NCBI GenBank assembly: GCA_910585375.1
Contig: CAJUCZ010000009.1
Span: 22,474 to 66,181, forward strand
Reading direction: 5' to 3'
Length of the DNA: 43,708 bases
Source of the DNA: an uncultured Alphaproteobacteria bacterium
GTDB lineage: Bacteria > Pseudomonadota > Alphaproteobacteria > RF32 > CAG-239
The notes beneath the pieces are model-generated. The model had not been told where the DNA came from. It searched no databases and was given only the letters and a program-made list of their open reading frames with translations. A program made the position numbers and the translations under genes. Position 1 is the first letter of the stretch. Each line of letters starts with the position of its first letter. Shown piece by piece: positions 27,770 to 37,237 of the stretch.

Positions 27770-28182
27770 CCCTTTTCCTCTGCTGTCCTGTTTTATGATG
27801 TCAACAAACTGATAACCGGCATTTTAACAAATCAGGAAAAAATTTCAACCTCTCTTCACCATATCCCTGACAAACCGTACGAGACAAACTTTATATGGAT
27901 TGATAAAAAACTATCTTTCAAACCTGCATCTTTTCCTCTGCCTCACGGGCAGCAGAATTATCTATTTCTAAAGTAATATATCGGGGCGGAACATACCCGT
28001 CTTTCAAAACCAGCATATAATGTTTGATTGTCGCCCACGGCGAATATTTCTGATATTCCTTTTCCCCGCATATTCCCCGAGTAAACGGGGATTTTTCTGT
28101 AAGGGACGTAATAAAACAAAACAGCGCCCTGAAAAGGGCGCATGACAATAGAGTACAAATGCCGGTACAATTCCTGAACCGA

Positions 28183-28698
28183 TTACTGTTTACATTTTAC
28201 AAATCTGGATATAATTTCAAGACAGCAACACCACAAAAAAGCAACAACAAAAGCTATACCCACCCCTTGTCGCAGCTGCCGGATATTAACAGAACCGCTC
28301 TCAAGATACGACCCGTAAAAATATGCCAATATACAGCCCAGCGTCAAACCAGCTAATACTCCGGCTATCATTTCATGCTCGGTATCCGAAGAAGCTCCTG
28401 TTTCTCCAGTTTTCCGCAATAATGTGTCAACAAACATTGTCCCGCTATGAAAAACAAGCCTAATGAATACAAAAGATAAAATAATTGCAGGTATCATATA
28501 GAGATTTTCTATATGGCGCTCAATATTATTTAAAAATTCTCCAATATCCAGTACAGCTATAACAACAAACAAAATAAATGCCAAGGCAAATATCAGCCTC
28601 AAAATCTCTAAAGCACCAGTTTTGTGAACGGTCAAACATATTCCTGAATAAATAACCAGACCTATGCACATAAAAACAAAGCAAACATAAATTCCCAT
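28183..28698 (-). CDS. Hypothetical integral membrane protein
   Basis: 171 aa with about five hydrophobic segments. A terminator hairpin (cagcgccctgaaaagggcgctg, about 28119-28141) lies downstream. Confidence 0.4.
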   Translation of the reverse strand: MGIYVCFVFMCIGLVIYSGICLTVHKTGALEILRLIFALAFILFVVIAVLDIGEFLNNIERHIENLYMIPAIILSFVFIRLVFHSGTMFVDTLLRKTGETGASSDTEHEMIAGVLAGLTLGCILAYFYGSYLESGSVNIRQLRQGVGIAFVVAFLWCCCLEIISRFVKCKQ

Positions 28699-28923
28699 AA
28701 TTATAATATTTATAAGTTAATAATAAAATCAGTTAATAAAACATATTATAATACAAATTCAAAAGCAAGAAAAAAACACCTGAATTTGCTAAACGCCTAA
28801 GATATTTCTGAGTTATTCATAAAACCTTGGAACCCATTGTTAATAATTAAACCTATGCGATTGCAATTTTAATTATAAAAACTAAACTAACTGTAAAATA
28901 CAATTATTAATAAGGAAGATCAA

Positions 28924-30825
28924 ATGGCAAAAAAATATTCGAATGGTAAATTAAACAAAGAAGTATATTATATGACATTATCCGATATTTTTAACAAATT
29001 TACCCCATTGGTCATTCCTGCGTATCAGAGAAGTTACTCTTGGGAAGATAAGCATATAAAAGATTTAAAACAGGATATAGAAGACATAAAGGAGTTTTCC
29101 AAAAAAGAACATTTTACAGGAACAATAGTTTTATCAGAAGACAAACATAAGTATTTAATTGTTGATGGACAACAAAGATTGACAAGTTTGTTTATCTTGC
29201 TGAAATCTATATATGATAGGACTAATGATCAAAATTTATTTGAGAACTATATCATTCAAAAAACAAATAATGATTCCCAAAGCAGACTGTCTACACAAAA
29301 TGATACAAATAATTTTTTTGAAGAATTTATCGTGGAGAACAATGTCAATATAGATGTCGAAATATATTCGCACAAAAGAATAAAAGCAGCAAAAATACAA
29401 TTCGACGAATGGATAAATAATAAACAATTACAAGAAATAAATGATATATTAGACATTATAACCAAGAGGCTAAAGTTTATTGTTTACAAACCCAATAATT
29501 ATTTAAACGCCCCGGCAATGTTCGAAATAATAAATAACAGAGGAAAAGATTTAAGCGAAATAGAAAAAATAAAAAATTATTTTGTATATATAGCAACTTC
29601 ACTGGGCGAAAATCATTCTTTGCACAAAAAAATAGCCGAATCTTGGGAAGGAATGCTTAAAAACTTAAACAGGGCAGATATTCATACTATTGAAGAGGAA
29701 AATAGCTTTTTGCGTGTTTGTTTTATCACTTTTTTCAGTTCAACTAAATTAAAATACCAGAACATATACAAAACATTAAAAGAGGAAATTTTCCCAATTA
29801 AAGCCTTTAGTCAAGAAAACACCAATACAAGCGATAAATTAATGAAGTTTCTTCGCTTTATACAAACGGCATCGAAATATTACTCATGTATCGTTAGATC
29901 AAGTAACTGTAACCCTATAATAAATCAACTTCCCAACACGACTAATTTACAGATTAAATATTTAGCTTGTCAAAAAAATACATCATCAATTACCCCTTTA
30001 TTTTTAGCCATAATGGCCAGAGATGATTTAACACAAATTGAACAAGATGAATTACTCAAATATTTGGAAATTTTAAATTTCAGAATGTATGTTTTACCAA
30101 GAGTATTAACTAGATCAGATAATGGCCAATCTGAGTTGTATACCATAGCTAATCAATTTTATGAAAAACTACTTTCAGTTGAAGAATTGAAAAATAAAAT
30201 GGTAAATATATCTCTTTCTTGGGTACCTATAACAAAATTTGTGGAAGCTATGAGTCTATCAGATGACGACACATATGATTTTGCAAGTTGGAGTGGATTG
30301 AAATATTTTTTTGCCAAATACGAAGAATACCTTGAAGATAACATAAATAAAACATTTGATGTCGCCTCAATTGAAAAAACAAGAAAAGACTGCAAAAGTG
30401 GAGATTATTTGTCTATTGAACATATATGGGCCCGAAAAAATAGATTACAATACGCTGCAGAAAATTATATCGCCAAAAGAAGACTTGGAAATTTAGTTCT
30501 TTTAGAATTAACCCCTAATATTTCTGCGGGAAATGAAGATATAGAAAAGAAATTAAACGAAGATAATGATATTGAAAGCCGAATTAGTATCATTGATAAA
30601 ACAAACTTACTTCAAGGAAAAGAACTAAAAAAAATTTTTTGTTCAGTATCTCAAAGACTAAAAAAGCTCCAAAGAAAAGGAAAATGGTATTATTGCAGCC
30701 AAGGTGAATACCTGGATGATGAACGTGAAAAAAAATTAATCAAGTTCGCAATTGACACATGGCATTTTCCCAATGAAAATACCAAAAAAGCAGAGAAATT
30801 ATTAGATGACAAGTTTAATAATTAA
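28924..30825 (+). CDS. GmrSD-like type IV restriction endonuclease (N-terminal DUF262 / C-terminal DUF1524)
   Basis: N-terminal DUF262 signatures (IPAYQRSYSWE, then LIVDGQQRLTSL). C-terminal DUF1524-like His-Me finger region (LSIEHIWARKN ... LGNLVLLE...N...GNE). The gene is much lower in GC than its flanks. Confidence 0.6.
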   Translation: MAKKYSNGKLNKEVYYMTLSDIFNKFTPLVIPAYQRSYSWEDKHIKDLKQDIEDIKEFSKKEHFTGTIVLSEDKHKYLIVDGQQRLTSLFILLKSIYDRTNDQNLFENYIIQKTNNDSQSRLSTQNDTNNFFEEFIVENNVNIDVEIYSHKRIKAAKIQFDEWINNKQLQEINDILDIITKRLKFIVYKPNNYLNAPAMFEIINNRGKDLSEIEKIKNYFVYIATSLGENHSLHKKIAESWEGMLKNLNRADIHTIEEENSFLRVCFITFFSSTKLKYQNIYKTLKEEIFPIKAFSQENTNTSDKLMKFLRFIQTASKYYSCIVRSSNCNPIINQLPNTTNLQIKYLACQKNTSSITPLFLAIMARDDLTQIEQDELLKYLEILNFRMYVLPRVLTRSDNGQSELYTIANQFYEKLLSVEELKNKMVNISLSWVPITKFVEAMSLSDDDTYDFASWSGLKYFFAKYEEYLEDNINKTFDVASIEKTRKDCKSGDYLSIEHIWARKNRLQYAAENYIAKRRLGNLVLLELTPNISAGNEDIEKKLNEDNDIESRISIIDKTNLLQGKELKKIFCSVSQRLKKLQRKGKWYYCSQGEYLDDEREKKLIKFAIDTWHFPNENTKKAEKLLDDKFNN

Positions 30826-30830
30826 TATAC

Positions 30831-30851
30831 CTTCAAAAACTGAAGGTATCG
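30831..30851 (+). terminator. Intrinsic terminator after the GmrSD-like gene
   Basis: taccttc-aaaaact-gaaggta. Confidence 0.4.
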
Positions 30852-30854
30852 CAA

Positions 30855-30884
30855 TTGGTGATACTTAACTCACAATTCACGAGC
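30855..30884. repeat. Degenerate copy B of the tRNA-Glu 3' end (att-like scar)
   Basis: tggtgatacttaactcacaattcacgagc, compared with the real tRNA 3' end tggtgatcctaacgagactcgaactcgtg at 32837. Confidence 0.5.
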
Positions 30885-30978
30885 TATTTGTGATTTTATA
30901 ATTTCTTTTGACTTTATTAAGAATGTCATACTATATATCACATCAGTAGCGTTTTATTACAACGAGATTGAGGAAAGT

Positions 30979-31452
30979 ATGAAAAATATTCCTACCGTAT
31001 ATTTAATCTGTGGTTTTCTCGGAGCCGGAAAAACAACCTATTCTAAAAAGTTGACTCAAGAAACTGGTGCAATTCATCTAAACCCCGATGAAGTTTGTAT
31101 GTTAAGATACACTTCTGAAGAATATGAAACCAATTGGGATTTTTGTTTTGCACAAACGGTTGACTATCTTTGGCAAGAAATTGCTACTTATATCAAAAGA
31201 AATAAAGATGTTATCTTTGATATGGGTTTCTGGACTAAATTATCACGCGAACAAGCCATCAACAAAATCAAACAAATGGGCGGATATCCTATAATTTATT
31301 ATATCTACGCCCCTGATTCAGTCTTAAAACAAAGGCTGACAAAGAGAACCGGAAAAATTGCCGAACAAAATCTCTTACATTTCGATAGTATAAAAAAATC
31401 TTTTGAAGAACCTTCTCAAGAGGAAGTATTTATAACTGTTAAAAATTATTAA
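30979..31452 (+). CDS. Small P-loop NTPase/kinase (AAA_33 / zeta-toxin-like fold)
   Basis: Walker A motif GFLGAGKTT near the N-terminus. 157 aa. Confidence 0.5.
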   Translation: MKNIPTVYLICGFLGAGKTTYSKKLTQETGAIHLNPDEVCMLRYTSEEYETNWDFCFAQTVDYLWQEIATYIKRNKDVIFDMGFWTKLSREQAINKIKQMGGYPIIYYIYAPDSVLKQRLTKRTGKIAEQNLLHFDSIKKSFEEPSQEEVFITVKNY

Positions 31453-31726
31453 GTTAATAATCCTGAGACCAAACAGAATTCAAACTCTCTCAACCTATTG
31501 AAAAATAAAGAAACATCATCAAACGAGTTCGGAAGCTTCTCTTAGCTTTGCAAGGGAGAAACGACCGCGGCAAAGGTTAGTTGTTCGCACAAGTAGGAAA
31601 ACTTTTGTTTTCCGTAGCTGTGCAAAATTCTCCCAAAATGACATTTTAAAATTTACAACATTCGAACTCGCTGAAAGCCTTGCCCCACATAGCAAAACAG
31701 CACCCTAAAAAGAGCGCCGCTTGCAT

Positions 31727-31755
31727 TGGTGATGCTTAACTTAAGGTTCACGAAC
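31727..31755. repeat. Degenerate copy A of the tRNA-Glu 3' end (att-like scar)
   Basis: tggtgatgcttaacttaaggttcacgaac. It is preceded at 31624-31676 by a roughly 50-nt repeat that recurs at 32744-32786, upstream of the real tRNA end. Confidence 0.5.
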
Positions 31756-31767
31756 AATAAGCAGGCT

Positions 31768-32652
31768 TTAATGCTTGCGAATAATCTTTGCAAATTTATT
31801 TATAGCATTATTTAATTTTGAGACTATCCAAGGCCGCTTATCAATTCGCAGCTTCATCAATCGCATTACAGACAGTAAATCGTAAAAATCACTGGTCTTA
31901 TAACCTAATGTGTTTTTACCCGATTGAAAAACATTAGGTAAACTCTTGATATGCAACATAACCTGATCGGTATCTTTATATTCTAATGTAAATTCAAAAG
32001 AATCTGGCAATTTTATATCAAACAAGTGAGGATTTTTTTTATATTCTTGCAAAGCATAATTGAAATCGGTTTTTATAGCATTGATAGCGTCTTTAGGCGA
32101 TAAAAAAGAATCAACACTAAAATCTTTAACAATAGTTCCAATAATATTCGGACAAAGTTTTTTCGCTTCTGCCACTGCACCATTATCACCTGATATATAA
32201 ACGACAGGAATATGAAAATATACGGCAGTCAAAATACTAAATGTAGTTTCACCGACAACTTCTCCGTTTAAGGTTAATTTCTCAAAATTGCGAGAACTAA
32301 AGGTATGAGCTAAAGGCGATAACCCTGAGCCTCCTGCAGCGTGATAACCGTGCAACACCGCAAAGTCAAAAGGAAATAGATTAATTCCTTTCATCATATT
32401 AGTCGGATCTTTATCCCAATAATCAATAACCTCCACATTAGATGAAAACTGATTTTTTAAAATATTTTTAGCACTTCCGTGTCCATCCCTAATCATAATT
32501 TTATCTTGCTGAAATAAACACTCCGCCATAGCTTTAAGCTCATTTGTTTGAATTTTTTGAAACTTTTTGTAATCAGGACCGACTTTACGCACATCAGACC
32601 ATTCTCTTGTCTGTGCAATACCCTCCATATCGCTTGAAATATATATATTCAT
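31768..32652 (-). CDS. Peptidase M55 (D-aminopeptidase DppA)-like protein
   Basis: The N-terminus MNIYISSDMEGIA resembles the conserved start of the DppA/M55 family (..YIS.D.EG..). 294 aa. Confidence 0.4.
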   Translation of the reverse strand: MNIYISSDMEGIAQTREWSDVRKVGPDYKKFQKIQTNELKAMAECLFQQDKIMIRDGHGSAKNILKNQFSSNVEVIDYWDKDPTNMMKGINLFPFDFAVLHGYHAAGGSGLSPLAHTFSSRNFEKLTLNGEVVGETTFSILTAVYFHIPVVYISGDNGAVAEAKKLCPNIIGTIVKDFSVDSFLSPKDAINAIKTDFNYALQEYKKNPHLFDIKLPDSFEFTLEYKDTDQVMLHIKSLPNVFQSGKNTLGYKTSDFYDLLSVMRLMKLRIDKRPWIVSKLNNAINKFAKIIRKH

Positions 32653-32836
32653 ACTAACTCCTTTTTGCAGATAATAGCAAAAATTATAAAAGATTTGATA
32701 AACTGCTCCTAGTTTTATTACAAACGAGTTCGTAAAATTCTCCCAAAATGCGCTTTTGAAATTTACAACATTCGAACTCGGTTAAGTACTTGATTTATAA
32801 AAGAAAAACGGCAGTTTTTATACCTGCCGTTTGTAT

Positions 32837-32912
32837 TGGTGATCCTAACGAGACTCGAACTCGTGTTTTCGCCGTGAGAGGGCGACGTCCTAGGCCGCTA
32901 GACGATAGGACC
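32837..32912 (-). tRNA. tRNA-Glu (anticodon CTC)
   Basis: The minus strand reads GGTCCTATCGTCTAGCGGCCTAGGACGTCGCCCTCTCACGGCGAAAACACGAGTTCGAGTCTCGTTAGGATCACCA. It has a Glu-type D arm (TCGTCTAG.GGCCTAGGAC), anticodon loop CUCUCAC and an encoded CCA. A terminator hairpin (acggcag...ctgccgt then TTTT) follows on the minus strand. Confidence 0.85.
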
Positions 32913-35888: not shown

Positions 35889-36121
35889 ATTATTGCTTTC
35901 ATCATAGCACAGTCAATATCGAAACGCAATAACTTTTGACAAAAATATTCATAAAAAAAAACATATTATTCTATTAAATATTTTTATTGATGTTTGAAAC
36001 CTCAAGTTTTTATCCTAAAATATCTACAATAACAATACTTTCCCAAAATAAATATTGACAAAACATAAAAAAGACATAAAATAAAAAAATATTATTTATT
36101 AAACTTTTATGTATATAAAAC

Positions 36122-36574
36122 ATGTTAAGAGAAAAAATGAAAGAAAGATTTAAGATTTTCGGTTGTGTTATAAGCCTTATTATCAAAGACAATAAAGTTC
36201 TGATGATTTTAAGAAAAAACAAACCGGACTCTGGATATTATAATCTGGTCGGCGGCCGCATGGAAGAAGGAGAAACCGTTCCTCAGGCTATAATACGTGA
36301 GATTCAAGAAGAAACCGGCTTAAATGTAAATAAAGAAGACATAAGTGTAGTTTCAACATTACATCGCCTTTGTGATAACGGAAACTATAATTCTATTGAA
36401 TTTGTTACGCTTATCAAAAATTTTACAGGTATGCCACAAAATCTTGAACCCCAATTCTGCGAAAAATTGGCATGGATTGATATCAACAATATGCCGGAAA
36501 ATATTTCACCATATGCCCGTACTGCAATTGAAAATTATAAAAATAAAATAGTATTTTCCGAAATTGATTACTAA
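36122..36574 (+). CDS. NUDIX hydrolase
   Basis: Nudix box GGRMEEGETVPQAIIREIQEETGL (GX5EX7REUXEEXGU). Confidence 0.75.
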   Translation: MLREKMKERFKIFGCVISLIIKDNKVLMILRKNKPDSGYYNLVGGRMEEGETVPQAIIREIQEETGLNVNKEDISVVSTLHRLCDNGNYNSIEFVTLIKNFTGMPQNLEPQFCEKLAWIDINNMPENISPYARTAIENYKNKIVFSEIDY

Positions 36575-36584
36575 AATCTAACAA

Positions 36585-36610
36585 AAGGCACCTTTGAAAA
36601 GGTGCCTTTT
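36585..36610 (+). terminator. Intrinsic terminator after the NUDIX gene
   Basis: ggcaccttt-gaaa-aggtgcc followed by TTTT. Confidence 0.6.
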
Positions 36611-36630
36611 GCCTGTAAAAACTCGTTTTT

Positions 36631-36790
36631 CAAAAAGTTTGATAAGAACCTGTGCTACGCTGTTTTTTTCGATGACATGCACAAAAAGGCACACGAGAAT
36701 TTTGAAACACAAACCTGACTGATAAAAACCCAGAAAGCGTCCTTTCAGGCCGCTGTAAAAACGCGGAGAAGCGCTAAGTAAAAACAACTG
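36631..36790. repeat. Noncoding paralogous repeat unit 1 (about 150 bp)
   Basis: About 80% identical to 36987-37150. It begins caaaaagtttgataa and contains cacgagaattttgaaac and ctgactgataaaaac.cagaaagcgtcc.ttcaggccgctgtaaaaa. Confidence 0.7.
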
Positions 36791-36986
36791 CGCTCCGGTT
36801 GTTTTTGTCTGCAAGCTCTTTGGAACATCTTGGCAAGCAAGGAAAGCATGAGCAACCGCAGCGAGCCTGGATGCCTAAGTCAGATAATAAGAAAAAATCT
36901 TTAAGATGACAAGCGCGTACATAGACGTACGTAACTTAGCCTTAAAGATTTTTTCTGTATTAATAGACCATTATACGCGTTTTTAC

Positions 36987-37150
36987 CAAAAAGTTTGATA
37001 AAGGTCGGTGCTGCGCCGTTTTTTTTTCGACGACGTGTACATATAGCTACACGAGAATTTTGAAACGCAAAACTGACTGATAAAAACGCAGAAAGCGTCC
37101 GTTCAGGCCGCTGTAAAAAATGTGGAGAACGAGAGAAATAATAAGATTTT
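36987..37150. repeat. Noncoding paralogous repeat unit 2
   Basis: See unit 1. Each unit is followed by a hairpin whose loop contains GTACATAGA (36886-36952 and 37157-37205). Confidence 0.7.
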
Positions 37151-37237
37151 AGGGTGGAGAAAGCGGAGTGTACATAGAAGTACATGAGCATTTCTCCAAC
37201 CCGCTAAATCTGTATTAGTTCTCCGTTATACACATTT

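What the first reader, a model, noticed from the sequence alone, without database searches (positions are those of the whole stretch)
30855..32912. tRNA-Glu(CTC) flanked by two degenerate direct copies of its own 3' end: serial integration scars without an integrase
The intact tRNA-Glu ends at 32837 on the minus strand. About 1.1 kb and about 2.0 kb downstream of that 3' end are two diverged copies of the last roughly 30 nt, at 31727-31755 and 30855-30884. Each is preceded by the ccgNttgNattggtgat context. A roughly 50-nt flank repeat (aaattctcccaaaatg...tttacaacattcgaactcg) is present at 31624-31676 and 32744-32786. The copies delimit two single-gene cargo modules: a P-loop kinase and an M55-peptidase-like gene. 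This matches tRNA-targeted integrative elements stacked in tandem and then decayed. I see no integrase, excisionase or transposase. Copies A and B are closer to each other than to the real tRNA end. That suggests they descend from an element attP rather than from the chromosomal attB.
Basis: partly seen in the sequence, partly recalled or inferred. Interest (0 to 1): 0.55.

Follow-up and report, generated by a model that had tools for sequence, protein, structure and literature searches.

The report
Integrase-less gene modules stacked at tRNA-Glu
Downstream of a tRNA-Glu gene in an uncultured gut alphaproteobacterium sit two roughly 1-kb single-gene modules and an older remnant, each bounded by the same 9-bp repeat of the tRNA's 3' tip; the same module type occurs in many gut metagenome assemblies, moves between species, and probably depends on serine recombinases encoded elsewhere.

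Summary
The repeats are real, but they copy only the last 7 nt of the tRNA plus 2 flanking nt (core ATTGGTGAT), not about 30 nt. Right of the core, copies A and B carry a separate conserved "X arm". Left of B and of the tRNA is a roughly 110-nt repeat with a terminator hairpin.

Comparative data support serial integration:
- One strain lacks exactly the 1110-bp M55 module.
- Another strain has an OXA-type beta-lactamase module inserted at the core between the tRNA and M55.
- Two sister species have neither module. There a large serine recombinase (LSR) gene reads through the same hairpin and core straight into the tRNA. Its last roughly 25 codons survive beside copy A.
- The M55 module (94% identical, core to core) and the OXA module (99.8%) occur in species whose core genes are only about 70% identical.
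- An X-arm search found 40 gut-metagenome loci, most with 0.7-3 kb modules ending at tRNA-Glu(CTC) or tRNA-Glu(TTC). Sampled cargo includes esterases, GNATs, a kinase, CrcB and EcoRI.

The window contains no recombinase. The likely enzyme is an LSR acting in trans; this is inferred, not shown. The arrangement resembles CIME accretion and SCC arrays. I rate it a new variant of a known kind.

The parts
32837..32912 (-). tRNA-Glu(CTC), intact, CCA encoded. Target of the array.
   Evidence: ARAGORN; Rfam RF00005 58.7 bits.
32835..32843 (.). Core copy T (ATTGGTGAT): the last 7 nt of the tRNA (ATCACCA) plus 2 nt. Junction between the M55 module and the tRNA.
   Evidence: Homology of L036 and L099 to the window starts or ends here.
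32721..32834 (.). tRNA-proximal 'backbone' of the M55 module: CAAACGAGTTCG (32721-32732), 47-nt repeat ending in CGAACTCG (32734-32780), spacer, and terminator hairpin ACGGCAG/CTGCCGT (32808-32830) that serves the tRNA.
   Evidence: Repeats D1/D8/D9. Conserved next to tRNA-Glu in L021, L023, L013 and in 13 of 15 distinct metagenome tRNA flanks.
31768..32652 (-). Cargo of module E3: M55 (DppA-like D-aminopeptidase family) protein, 294 aa.
   Evidence: Pfam PF04951, E 5.5e-56. Few close homologues. Absent in L013. 95%-identical protein in another species, L099.
31725..31758 (.). Copy B: core ATTGGTGAT (31725-31733) plus X arm X_B (31734-31758). Distal end of module E3. E3 spans 31725 to 32834, 1110 bp core to core.
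   Evidence: L099 6804-7937 matches window 32847..31716 at 93.7%.
31453..31724 (.). Backbone of module E2: Z region (31453-31519), CAAACGAGTTCG (31520-31531), 91-nt two-hairpin insert (about 31533-31623), 47-nt repeat (31624-31670), and a degenerate terminator hairpin (to 31724).
   Evidence: D1, D8, D9. Z is homologous to L045 1549-1605 and to L023. 91-nt homologue in L045. The hairpin is degenerate compared with the intact version.
30979..31452 (+). Cargo of module E2: 157-aa P-loop kinase (AAA_33 / zeta-toxin-like).
   Evidence: Pfam PF13671, E 9e-18. Weak PADLOC VakA hit only. A distant PPase-AAA_33 fusion lies beside M55 in L099.
30854..30887 (.). Copy A: core ATTGGTGAT (30854-30862) plus X arm X_A (30863-30884). 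Distal end of module E2. E2 spans 30854 to 31724, 871 bp.
30785..30853 (+). Remnant of the last roughly 25 codons of a large serine recombinase gene, including the hairpin ATACCTTCA/TGAAGGTAT (30827-30849) and CGCA. It overlaps the 3' end of the GmrSD gene.
   Evidence: blastn: 88-90% identity to the LSR-tRNA junction of L020 and L022. tblastn to LSR C-termini, E 2e-6 to 1e-4. Local alignment score 45 vs shuffle maximum 30.
28924..30825 (+). GmrSD-family type IV restriction (defence) gene, 633 aa. Part of the oldest, most tRNA-distal part of the island.
   Evidence: Pfam GmrSD_N/GmrSD_C. PADLOC HEC-06/Orf5, E 5e-45. GC 25-32%. Absent in L020-L023.
28183..28698 (-). 171-aa membrane ORF with no family match, at the distal edge of the low-GC island. 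Absent from sister species L022.

Best explanation
The 3' tip of tRNA-Glu acts as a recombination hotspot where small mobile modules accumulate head to tail.

Module design, in window orientation: core ATTGGTGAT, a conserved roughly 25-nt X arm, 1-3 cargo genes, then a roughly 110-150-nt backbone that ends in a terminator hairpin.

Proposed cycle:
1. A circular module recombines with the tRNA at the core.
2. The module supplies the last 7 nt of the tRNA and a new terminator.
3. The previous terminator and backbone are pushed outward and now abut the newcomer's X arm. The youngest module therefore lies next to the tRNA.

In the window the order from oldest to youngest is: LSR-element remnant with GmrSD, then the kinase module E2 (871 bp), then the M55 module E3 (1110 bp), then the tRNA.

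The modules encode no recombinase. The most likely catalysts are large serine recombinases carried by bigger elements that use the same core. LSR-1 has an ORF that reads through the core. LSR-2 sits just inside X arms.

Modules can also be lost, and perhaps gained, by RecA-type recombination between the directly repeated backbones.

Shown: module boundaries at the core, presence/absence polymorphism, between-species transfer, and LSR adjacency in related genomes.
Inferred: circular intermediates, LSR catalysis in trans, and the order of arrival.
For: 1. Relative to sister species L020 and L022 (LSR 3' end, hairpin, CGCA, ATTGGTGAT, tRNA), the window has 1981 bp inserted between two ATTGGTGAT copies. 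The hairpin side is 88-90% identical.
2. L013 lacks exactly 1110 bp, which is the repeat period.
3. In L036 the M55 module is preceded by a third X arm and an OXA-like class D beta-lactamase gene, not by the tRNA. Homology to the window starts at the core.
4. The OXA module is 99.8% identical over 891 nt, starting 2 nt from the core, between L036 and L045. Their core genes are 67-73% identical.
5. The M55 module is 93.7% identical from core to core in L099, where flanking genes are 68-74% identical.
6. LSR-1 homologues share ...SLNKKIPSKTEGIAIG and diverge exactly at the core. Their tails match antisense tRNA-Glu variants, tRNA-Lys(TTT) (checked at DNA level in L101), or X-arm sequence.
7. The window keeps about 25 LSR-1 codons left of copy A.
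8. The X-arm pattern found 40 metagenome loci. Arrays end at tRNA-Glu(CTC) or tRNA-Glu(TTC), with core-to-core units mostly 0.69-3.0 kb. An LSR-2 gene lies within 2 kb of the X arm in 6 loci.
9. The island is low in GC.
10. The internal terminator hairpin at copy B is degenerate while the tRNA-adjacent one is intact, as expected if displaced copies decay.
Against: - No recombinase is in the window. No LSR has been linked to this species' genome.
- No circular junction or precise empty site for a single module was observed.
- The L013 junction lies inside the 47-nt backbone repeat, not at the core. Its repeat allele is not a simple chimera of the window's two alleles.
- The left arms at junctions are very diverse terminators. 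Neither LSR-hairpin/core/X nor backbone/core/X shows significant dyad symmetry. This does not fit the usual two-half-site LSR attP.
- Canonical LSRs do not recombine attP with attR, yet stacking at an occupied tRNA would require something similar.
- The 40 metagenome loci were selected with the X-arm pattern, so X-arm conservation within that set is partly circular.
Confidence: 0.6

Rival explanations
1. Homologous-recombination cassette exchange. Modules are not moved by a site-specific enzyme. The conserved backbone (about 150 nt) and the tRNA/core act as homology arms, so incoming DNA from relatives is inserted, swapped or deleted by RecA.
For: The L013 deletion junction falls within the 47-nt backbone repeat and removes exactly one repeat period. 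Backbones are conserved across species. Left flanks at the OXA-module boundary share GCCGTTTG plus the core, so short homology exists there.
Against: Module boundaries in between-species comparisons fall at the 9-bp core even where the sequence to its left is unrelated. Examples are the LSR hairpin vs backbone at copy A, and L099 vs the window. On the X-arm side there is no long homology with the tRNA body. LSR ORFs cross exactly this core and switch partners there.
Confidence: 0.2
2. Pure decay. Each unit is the stump of a once complete LSR element (a CIME formed by deletion). The small modules have no mobility of their own. Identical small units in other species reflect transfer of whole arrays or of larger elements before parallel deletion.
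For: An LSR 3' remnant lies at copy A. A truncated LSR is present in L022. LSR-2 elements have the layout X arm, cargo, LSR-2, so a deletion after the cargo could give a single-gene stump.
Against: The M55 module is found core to core, and the OXA module on its X-arm side, with different neighbours in different species. No LSR-2 or LSR-1 remnant is detectable inside E2 or E3. The backbone is not detectably homologous to the LSR 3' end.
Confidence: 0.13
3. Classical tyrosine-integrase tRNA island. A phage-type integrase encoded elsewhere targets the tRNA-Glu 3' end, and the repeats are attL/attR.
For: tRNA 3' ends are the classical targets. A 192-aa Phage_integrase fragment lies inside the L020 element. 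An HTH_17 (Xis-like) gene lies near the tRNA in L023. True partial tRNA 3' copies of 15-22 nt occur in some arrays.
Against: The identity block is only 8-9 bp, of which 7 are tRNA. No tyrosine integrase adjoins any of the junctions examined. Serine recombinase ORFs physically span the core.
Confidence: 0.05
4. Chance similarity. The repeats are coincidental matches in AT-rich intergenic DNA.
For: The shared stretch with the tRNA is short (9 nt).
Against: The repeats are collinear with identical 1110-bp spacing. The same arms recur in dozens of independent loci at equivalent positions.
Confidence: 0.01

Closest known systems
CIMEs and site-specific tandem accretion (ICESt1/ICESt3 family at fda in Streptococcus thermophilus; reviewed in PMC5704250)
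   Same: Elements that lack integration and transfer genes but are still flanked by att repeats. They are stacked next to the target gene's 3' end by successive integrations, and a functional neighbour can move them.
   Different: CIMEs are defined as deletion derivatives of ICEs or IMEs that use tyrosine integrases. Here the units are about 1 kb and mostly single-gene, share a conserved backbone and X arm, target a tRNA tip, and the associated recombinases are large serine recombinases. Derivation by deletion is shown only for the oldest unit.
SCCmec / psiSCC composite islands at rlmH in staphylococci (Ccr large serine recombinases). This comparison rests on my own knowledge.
   Same: LSR-associated. 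Integration at the extreme 3' end of a conserved gene without inactivating it. Tandem arrays separated by short direct repeats. Recombinase-less cassettes sit beside recombinase-bearing ones. Cargo includes resistance genes.
   Different: The target is a tRNA-Glu (or tRNA-Lys) CCA end, not rlmH. The LSRs are single genes of different families. Modules are much smaller. The hosts are uncultured gut Alphaproteobacteria.
Tycheposons and tRNA-proximal islands of Prochlorococcus (bioRxiv 10.1101/2020.12.28.424599)
   Same: Islands next to tRNA genes, with elements in tandem separated by partial tRNA copies, newer elements pushing older ones outward, and degenerate remnants. A minority use large serine recombinases.
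   Different: Tycheposons carry their own integrase (910 of 937 tyrosine) and often replication genes. Their repeats are longer partial tRNAs. The units here have no integrase and share only 7 nt with the tRNA.
Integron gene cassette arrays
   Same: Arrays of mostly single-gene, recombinase-less units with short conserved ends, inserted at one fixed site, newest nearest that site. The cargo mix looks alike (beta-lactamase, acetyltransferases, esterases, small kinases).
   Different: No IntI, attI or Pc. No attC-type R''/R' imperfect palindromes at unit ends. Cargo genes lie in either orientation and appear to carry their own upstream regions. The associated enzymes are serine, not tyrosine, recombinases.

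Membership tests
CIME / tandem accretion array | Unit flanked by direct repeats of the att core at the 3' end of the target gene | tested here: met
   ATTGGTGAT at 30854, 31725 and 32835. Boundaries confirmed by comparison with L020, L022, L036 and L099.
CIME / tandem accretion array | No integration or transfer genes inside the unit | tested here: met
   E2 holds only the kinase and E3 only M55. No LSR hits other than the copy-A remnant. No recombinase Pfam hit anywhere in the window.
CIME / tandem accretion array | Derived by deletion from a complete ICE or IME | tested here: inconclusive
   An LSR 3' remnant is found only at copy A. There is no remnant in E2 or E3, and the backbone is not homologous to the LSR 3' end.
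CIME / tandem accretion array | Mobilised by a functional element integrated alongside | not testable with these tools
   Needs excision and transfer assays.
Large serine recombinase integrative element | Encodes an LSR (Resolvase + Recombinase + Zn-ribbon domains) next to its att site | tested here: not met
   Absent from the window. Present in sister loci L020 (full length) and L022 (truncated), in L025-L029, L050, L066 and L101, and LSR-2 in L062, L064, L067, L084, L091 and L092.
Large serine recombinase integrative element | Short identity (a few bp) between attP and attB at the crossover | tested here: met
   The shared core is 8-9 bp (6 bp, TGGTGA, with tRNA-Lys). LSR ORF tails switch exactly there.
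Large serine recombinase integrative element | attP of about 50 bp with imperfect dyad symmetry around the crossover | tested here: inconclusive
   Best dyad 14/26 centred in the core for L064 and L066, but P is about 0.16-0.18 against shuffles. None for backbone-core-X.
Tyrosine-integrase tRNA genomic island | Tyrosine integrase gene adjacent to the tRNA or att site | tested here: not met
   None in the window or at any junction examined. Only a 192-aa fragment deep inside the L020 element.
Tyrosine-integrase tRNA genomic island | Direct repeat is a substantial 3' segment of the tRNA (typically at least 15 nt) | tested here: not met
   Only 7 nt of the tRNA are repeated at A and B.
Integron cassette array | IntI integrase with attI and a Pc promoter at the array head | tested here: not met
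   No tyrosine recombinase Pfam hit in the window. The array head is a tRNA.
Integron cassette array | attC site (RYYYAAC ... GTTRRRY imperfect palindrome, 57-141 nt) at each cassette end | tested here: not met
   Reading: GCTTAAC / GTTAAGT motifs exist but lie about 1 kb apart across the gene and are missing from many backbone variants.
Tycheposon | tRNA-proximal island with tandem elements separated by partial tRNA copies | tested here: met
Tycheposon | Each element carries its own site-specific integrase (and often replication genes) | tested here: not met
   E2 and E3 carry neither.

The most novel reading that the evidence does not exclude
These units are true mobile gene cassettes of an integron-like capture platform built on different parts. 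The attI equivalent is the CCA tip of tRNA-Glu. The cassette recombination site is the backbone/core/X-arm junction. The enzyme is a large serine recombinase supplied in trans. The platform would be widespread in human-gut Alphaproteobacteria and would shuttle resistance, detoxification and defence genes, including a class D beta-lactamase, between species.
Probability: 0.33. Interest if true: 0.8.

Novelty: new variant of a known kind. Interest (0 to 1): 0.6.

Why it matters
If the reading holds, a little-studied, uncultured group of gut Alphaproteobacteria has a compact way of collecting and exchanging single accessory genes at a tRNA tip. These include a beta-lactamase, acetyltransferases, restriction systems and a GmrSD nuclease. 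The modules need no recombinase gene of their own.

- Genome annotation: such islands have no integrase and only a 9-bp repeat, so island finders would miss them.
- Resistance-gene ecology: the OXA-like module is 99.8% identical in two species that are only about 70% identical.
- Recombinase biology: the LSR ORF crosses its own att site, so its C-terminus changes on integration. The site also seems to need only one conserved arm.
- Genome engineering: these LSRs and their short tRNA-tip target could be of practical interest.

Tried and rejected
1. Homology between the 47-nt/backbone flank and the 3' end of the LSR-1 gene. Both contain a GAGTTCGAA...TTCGAACT inverted repeat, but local alignment scores equal those of shuffles. 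An apparent tblastn hit was carried by the tRNA-antisense part only. Rejected.
2. Dyad symmetry of hairpin-core-X as an LSR attP. I counted 16/28 matches by eye, but the test was not significant. Not claimed.
3. Integron-type attC reading of GCTTAAC/GTTAAGT. The spacing and distribution are wrong. Rejected.
4. L013 as the precise empty site for core-level insertion of M55. Rejected, because L013 keeps the tRNA-proximal flank and its junction lies in the 47-nt repeat. I interpret it as recombination between backbones.
5. Viral-contig search with LSR-1 gave one distant hit (29% identity) and nothing useful.
6. Rfam found nothing except the two tRNAs.
7. Exact-protein look-ups of GmrSD and the kinase gave only the same locus.
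8. More distant OXA homologues (P0122, P0127) sit in ordinary chromosomal contexts with no X arms detected, although L046 has one 1.8 kb from a tRNA-Glu(CTC).
9. A far-distal att copy for the GmrSD/LSR-remnant unit near 28100-28920 was not found.
Full report
**What is in the window**

ARAGORN and Rfam place tRNA-Glu(CTC) at 32837-32912 on the minus strand.

GC content falls from about 44% to 21-40% between roughly 28150 and 32836. This island contains:
- a 171-aa membrane ORF (28183-28698, minus strand);
- a GmrSD type IV restriction gene (28924-30825);
- an AAA_33/zeta-like kinase (30979-31452);
- an M55 peptidase (31768-32652, minus strand).

The formal repeat search confirms copies A and B (34 nt, 79% identical). 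It also shows a collinear duplicated unit of about 113 nt at spacing 1110: 31624-31682 with 31716-31736, against 32734-32792 with 32826-32846. A further repeat, CAAACGAGTTCG, has spacing 1201. The copy at 31520 carries an extra 91 nt.

All three sites share only ATTGGTGAT with the tRNA. That is the tRNA's ATCACCA tip plus AT. The sequence to the right of the core in A and B, which I call the X arm, does not resemble the tRNA body. To the left, B and the tRNA share GCCG.TTG. preceded by a terminator hairpin. Copy A is preceded by a different hairpin.

**Host and strain variation**

Exact-protein look-ups place the locus in MAGs of an uncultured gut alphaproteobacterium.

Most strains match the window at 99-100% identity. 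Two do not:
- L013 (99% identical) lacks exactly 1110 bp, the M55 unit. Its junction lies inside the 47-nt repeat.
- In L036 (98% identical) the M55 unit is preceded by ...GCTCGGAAACTGTGAGTTAAGC-ATCACCAAT rather than by the tRNA. This is a third X arm. Behind it sits a class D (OXA-like) beta-lactamase gene with STFK, YGN and KTG motifs. Homology to the window starts at the core.

Contigs from several samples break at 31653/31682 and 32816/32828. This is what mixed strain populations would produce.

**Sister species**

All four related species have the tRNA after the same 117-aa gene, but each has different content beyond it.

In L020 a 533-aa large serine recombinase ORF (Resolvase, Recombinase and Zn-ribbon domains) runs through a hairpin and CGCAATTGGTGAT, then antisense through the tRNA. 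L022 has a truncated copy of the same gene. That hairpin plus core is 88-90% identical to window 30824-30865. Relative to these genomes, the window therefore holds a 1981-bp insertion between two core copies: E2 of 871 bp and E3 of 1110 bp.

Translated in the recombinase frame, window 30785-30892 reads KKQRNY*MTSLIINIPSKTEGIAIGDT*LTIHELFV. This matches the C-termini of LSR homologues and scores far above shuffles. It is a remnant of about 25 codons lying under the end of the GmrSD gene.

**The recombinase and the core**

Homologues more than 90% identical to the L020 recombinase are common in gut assemblies. All share ...SLNKKIPSKTEGIAIG and diverge exactly at the codons that spell the core. 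Their tails match one of the following:
- antisense tRNA-Glu variants;
- tRNA-Lys(TTT), confirmed at DNA level in L101, where the identical hairpin and ATTGGTGA are followed by the tRNA-Lys body;
- X-arm sequence.

In L050 a full-length recombinase abuts an X arm that differs by 1 nt from that of the OXA module. One identical recombinase protein (P0029) is followed, beyond the core and a conserved arm, by different defence gene sets in different assemblies.

**Modules as discrete, transferable units**

The OXA module is 99.8% identical over 891 nt between L036 and L045, beginning 2 nt from the core. The core genes of those two genomes are 67-73% identical.

The M55 module is 93.7% identical from core to core in L099, whose neighbouring genes are 68-74% identical. 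In L099 it is not next to the tRNA.

Modules share a layout: core, X arm, cargo, Z region, CAAACGAGTTCG, an optional insert, a 47-nt segment ending in CGAACTCG, a spacer, a terminator hairpin, and then the next core.

**How widespread it is**

A degenerate X-arm pattern retrieved 40 metagenome loci.
- These give 29 distinct junctions that have at least 150 nt of left flank.
- Arrays end at tRNA-Glu(CTC) or tRNA-Glu(TTC).
- Core-to-core units are mostly 0.69-3.0 kb.
- Left of the core there is almost always a terminator hairpin. A strict motif test classed 10 of the 29 left flanks as backbone type and 4 as LSR-1 3' ends. By eye, about 21 are backbone type.
- Sampled cargo includes a GDSL esterase, GNAT acetyltransferases, an alpha/beta hydrolase, an SDR, PEMT, CrcB, a shikimate-kinase-like kinase and an EcoRI endonuclease.
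- A second LSR family, about 33% identical to the first, lies within 2 kb inside the X arm in six loci.

Caveat: X-arm conservation within this set is partly built in by the search pattern. Independent X arms do exist: window copies A and B, L036/L045, L050, and secondary cores found only through TTGGTGAT.

**Interpretation**

The best-supported model is accretion at the tRNA tip. Each incoming module recombines at the core, restores the tRNA end and brings a terminator. The previous flank is displaced and now abuts the newcomer's X arm.

The degenerate hairpin at copy B, compared with the intact one at the tRNA, fits decay after displacement. The L013 junction fits loss by homologous recombination between backbones.

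The enzyme is inferred, not shown. LSRs are the only recombinases physically tied to this core. Against that:
- none is in the window;
- the diverse left arms and the lack of significant dyad symmetry are atypical for an LSR attP;
- stacking at an occupied site would need a relaxed choice of partner site.

**Comparison with known systems**

The arrangement works like CIME accretion (PMC5704250), like SCC/psiSCC arrays (my own knowledge), and like tandem tycheposons (10.1101/2020.12.28.424599). It fails the defining tests for integrons and for tyrosine-integrase islands.

The distinctive features are the module family itself, its tRNA-Glu tip target, the recombinase ORF that spans its own att site, and the integron-like cargo. 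I rate it a new variant of a known kind.

Noticed in passing
window 31533-31623; L045 424-515: A 91-nt insert sits between CGAGTTCG and the 47-nt repeat of the kinase module. It forms two hairpins (CTTTGC...GCAAAG and GGAAAAC...GTTTTCC). Its only other version, in another species, keeps both stems with different internal sequence, which suggests a small structured or mobile element. Rfam found nothing.
   Followed up: partly
L020 3802-5403; P0001-P0035; L101 4440-4626: The serine recombinase ORF has no stop before its att core. Its last 10-80 residues are therefore encoded by whatever lies across the junction (antisense tRNA-Glu, tRNA-Lys, or an X arm). Integration and excision change the protein's C-terminus, which could act as a regulatory switch.
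   Followed up: partly
window 32721-32780 and 31520-31670; tRNA 32848-32863: The backbone's 8-bp inverted repeat CGAGTTCG...CGAACTCG and the following CTGAAAGCC resemble the T-arm region of tRNA-Glu (16 nt at 81%, D5). The backbone may be an old decayed tRNA fragment.
   Followed up: no
L099 6485-6500 and 6808; L067 3284; L068 8858; L094 3760: Some arrays also contain true partial tRNA-Glu 3' copies of 15-22 nt (for example CCGTTGGGATCACCA), besides the X-arm junctions. This hints at a second class of integration event, or a different recombinase, at the same tRNA.
   Followed up: no
L099 8043-8858; L022 11657-11995; window 30979-31452: In L099 the gene beside the M55 module is a 271-aa pyrophosphatase-AAA_33 kinase fusion. 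L022 keeps a pyrophosphatase fragment at the same locus. The window's 157-aa kinase has only the kinase domain.
   Followed up: no
window 35900-37170: A second low-GC patch (20-30%) surrounds the NUDIX gene (36122-36574). Internally repeated segments at about 36582-36740 and 36950-37165 show up in cross-species BLAST. Strains differ here: the NUDIX product is 145, 150 or a truncated 57 aa, and an extra 94-aa ORF appears in L004.
   Followed up: no
window 27918-28148: A remnant of the C-terminal third of a 194-aa ORF that is intact in sister species L022 (58% identity over 58 aa). It marks the distal edge of the island next to the O6-methylguanine methyltransferase gene.
   Followed up: partly
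L006/L015 (SRR29547557); L008/L017 (SRR29547553): Assemblies from single samples break at 31653/31682 and 32816/32828, which are module-boundary repeats. This suggests that variants with different module content coexist in the same gut community.
   Followed up: no
L025-L029 downstream of 11602: An identical recombinase protein (P0029) is followed by different defence sets in different assemblies: SNF2 helicase + N6/N4 methylase + Abi_C; HATPase + Dcm + Vsr; or a Gabija-like UvrD + OLD pair with a type II R-M system and a second serine recombinase with ParB/RepB.
   Followed up: no
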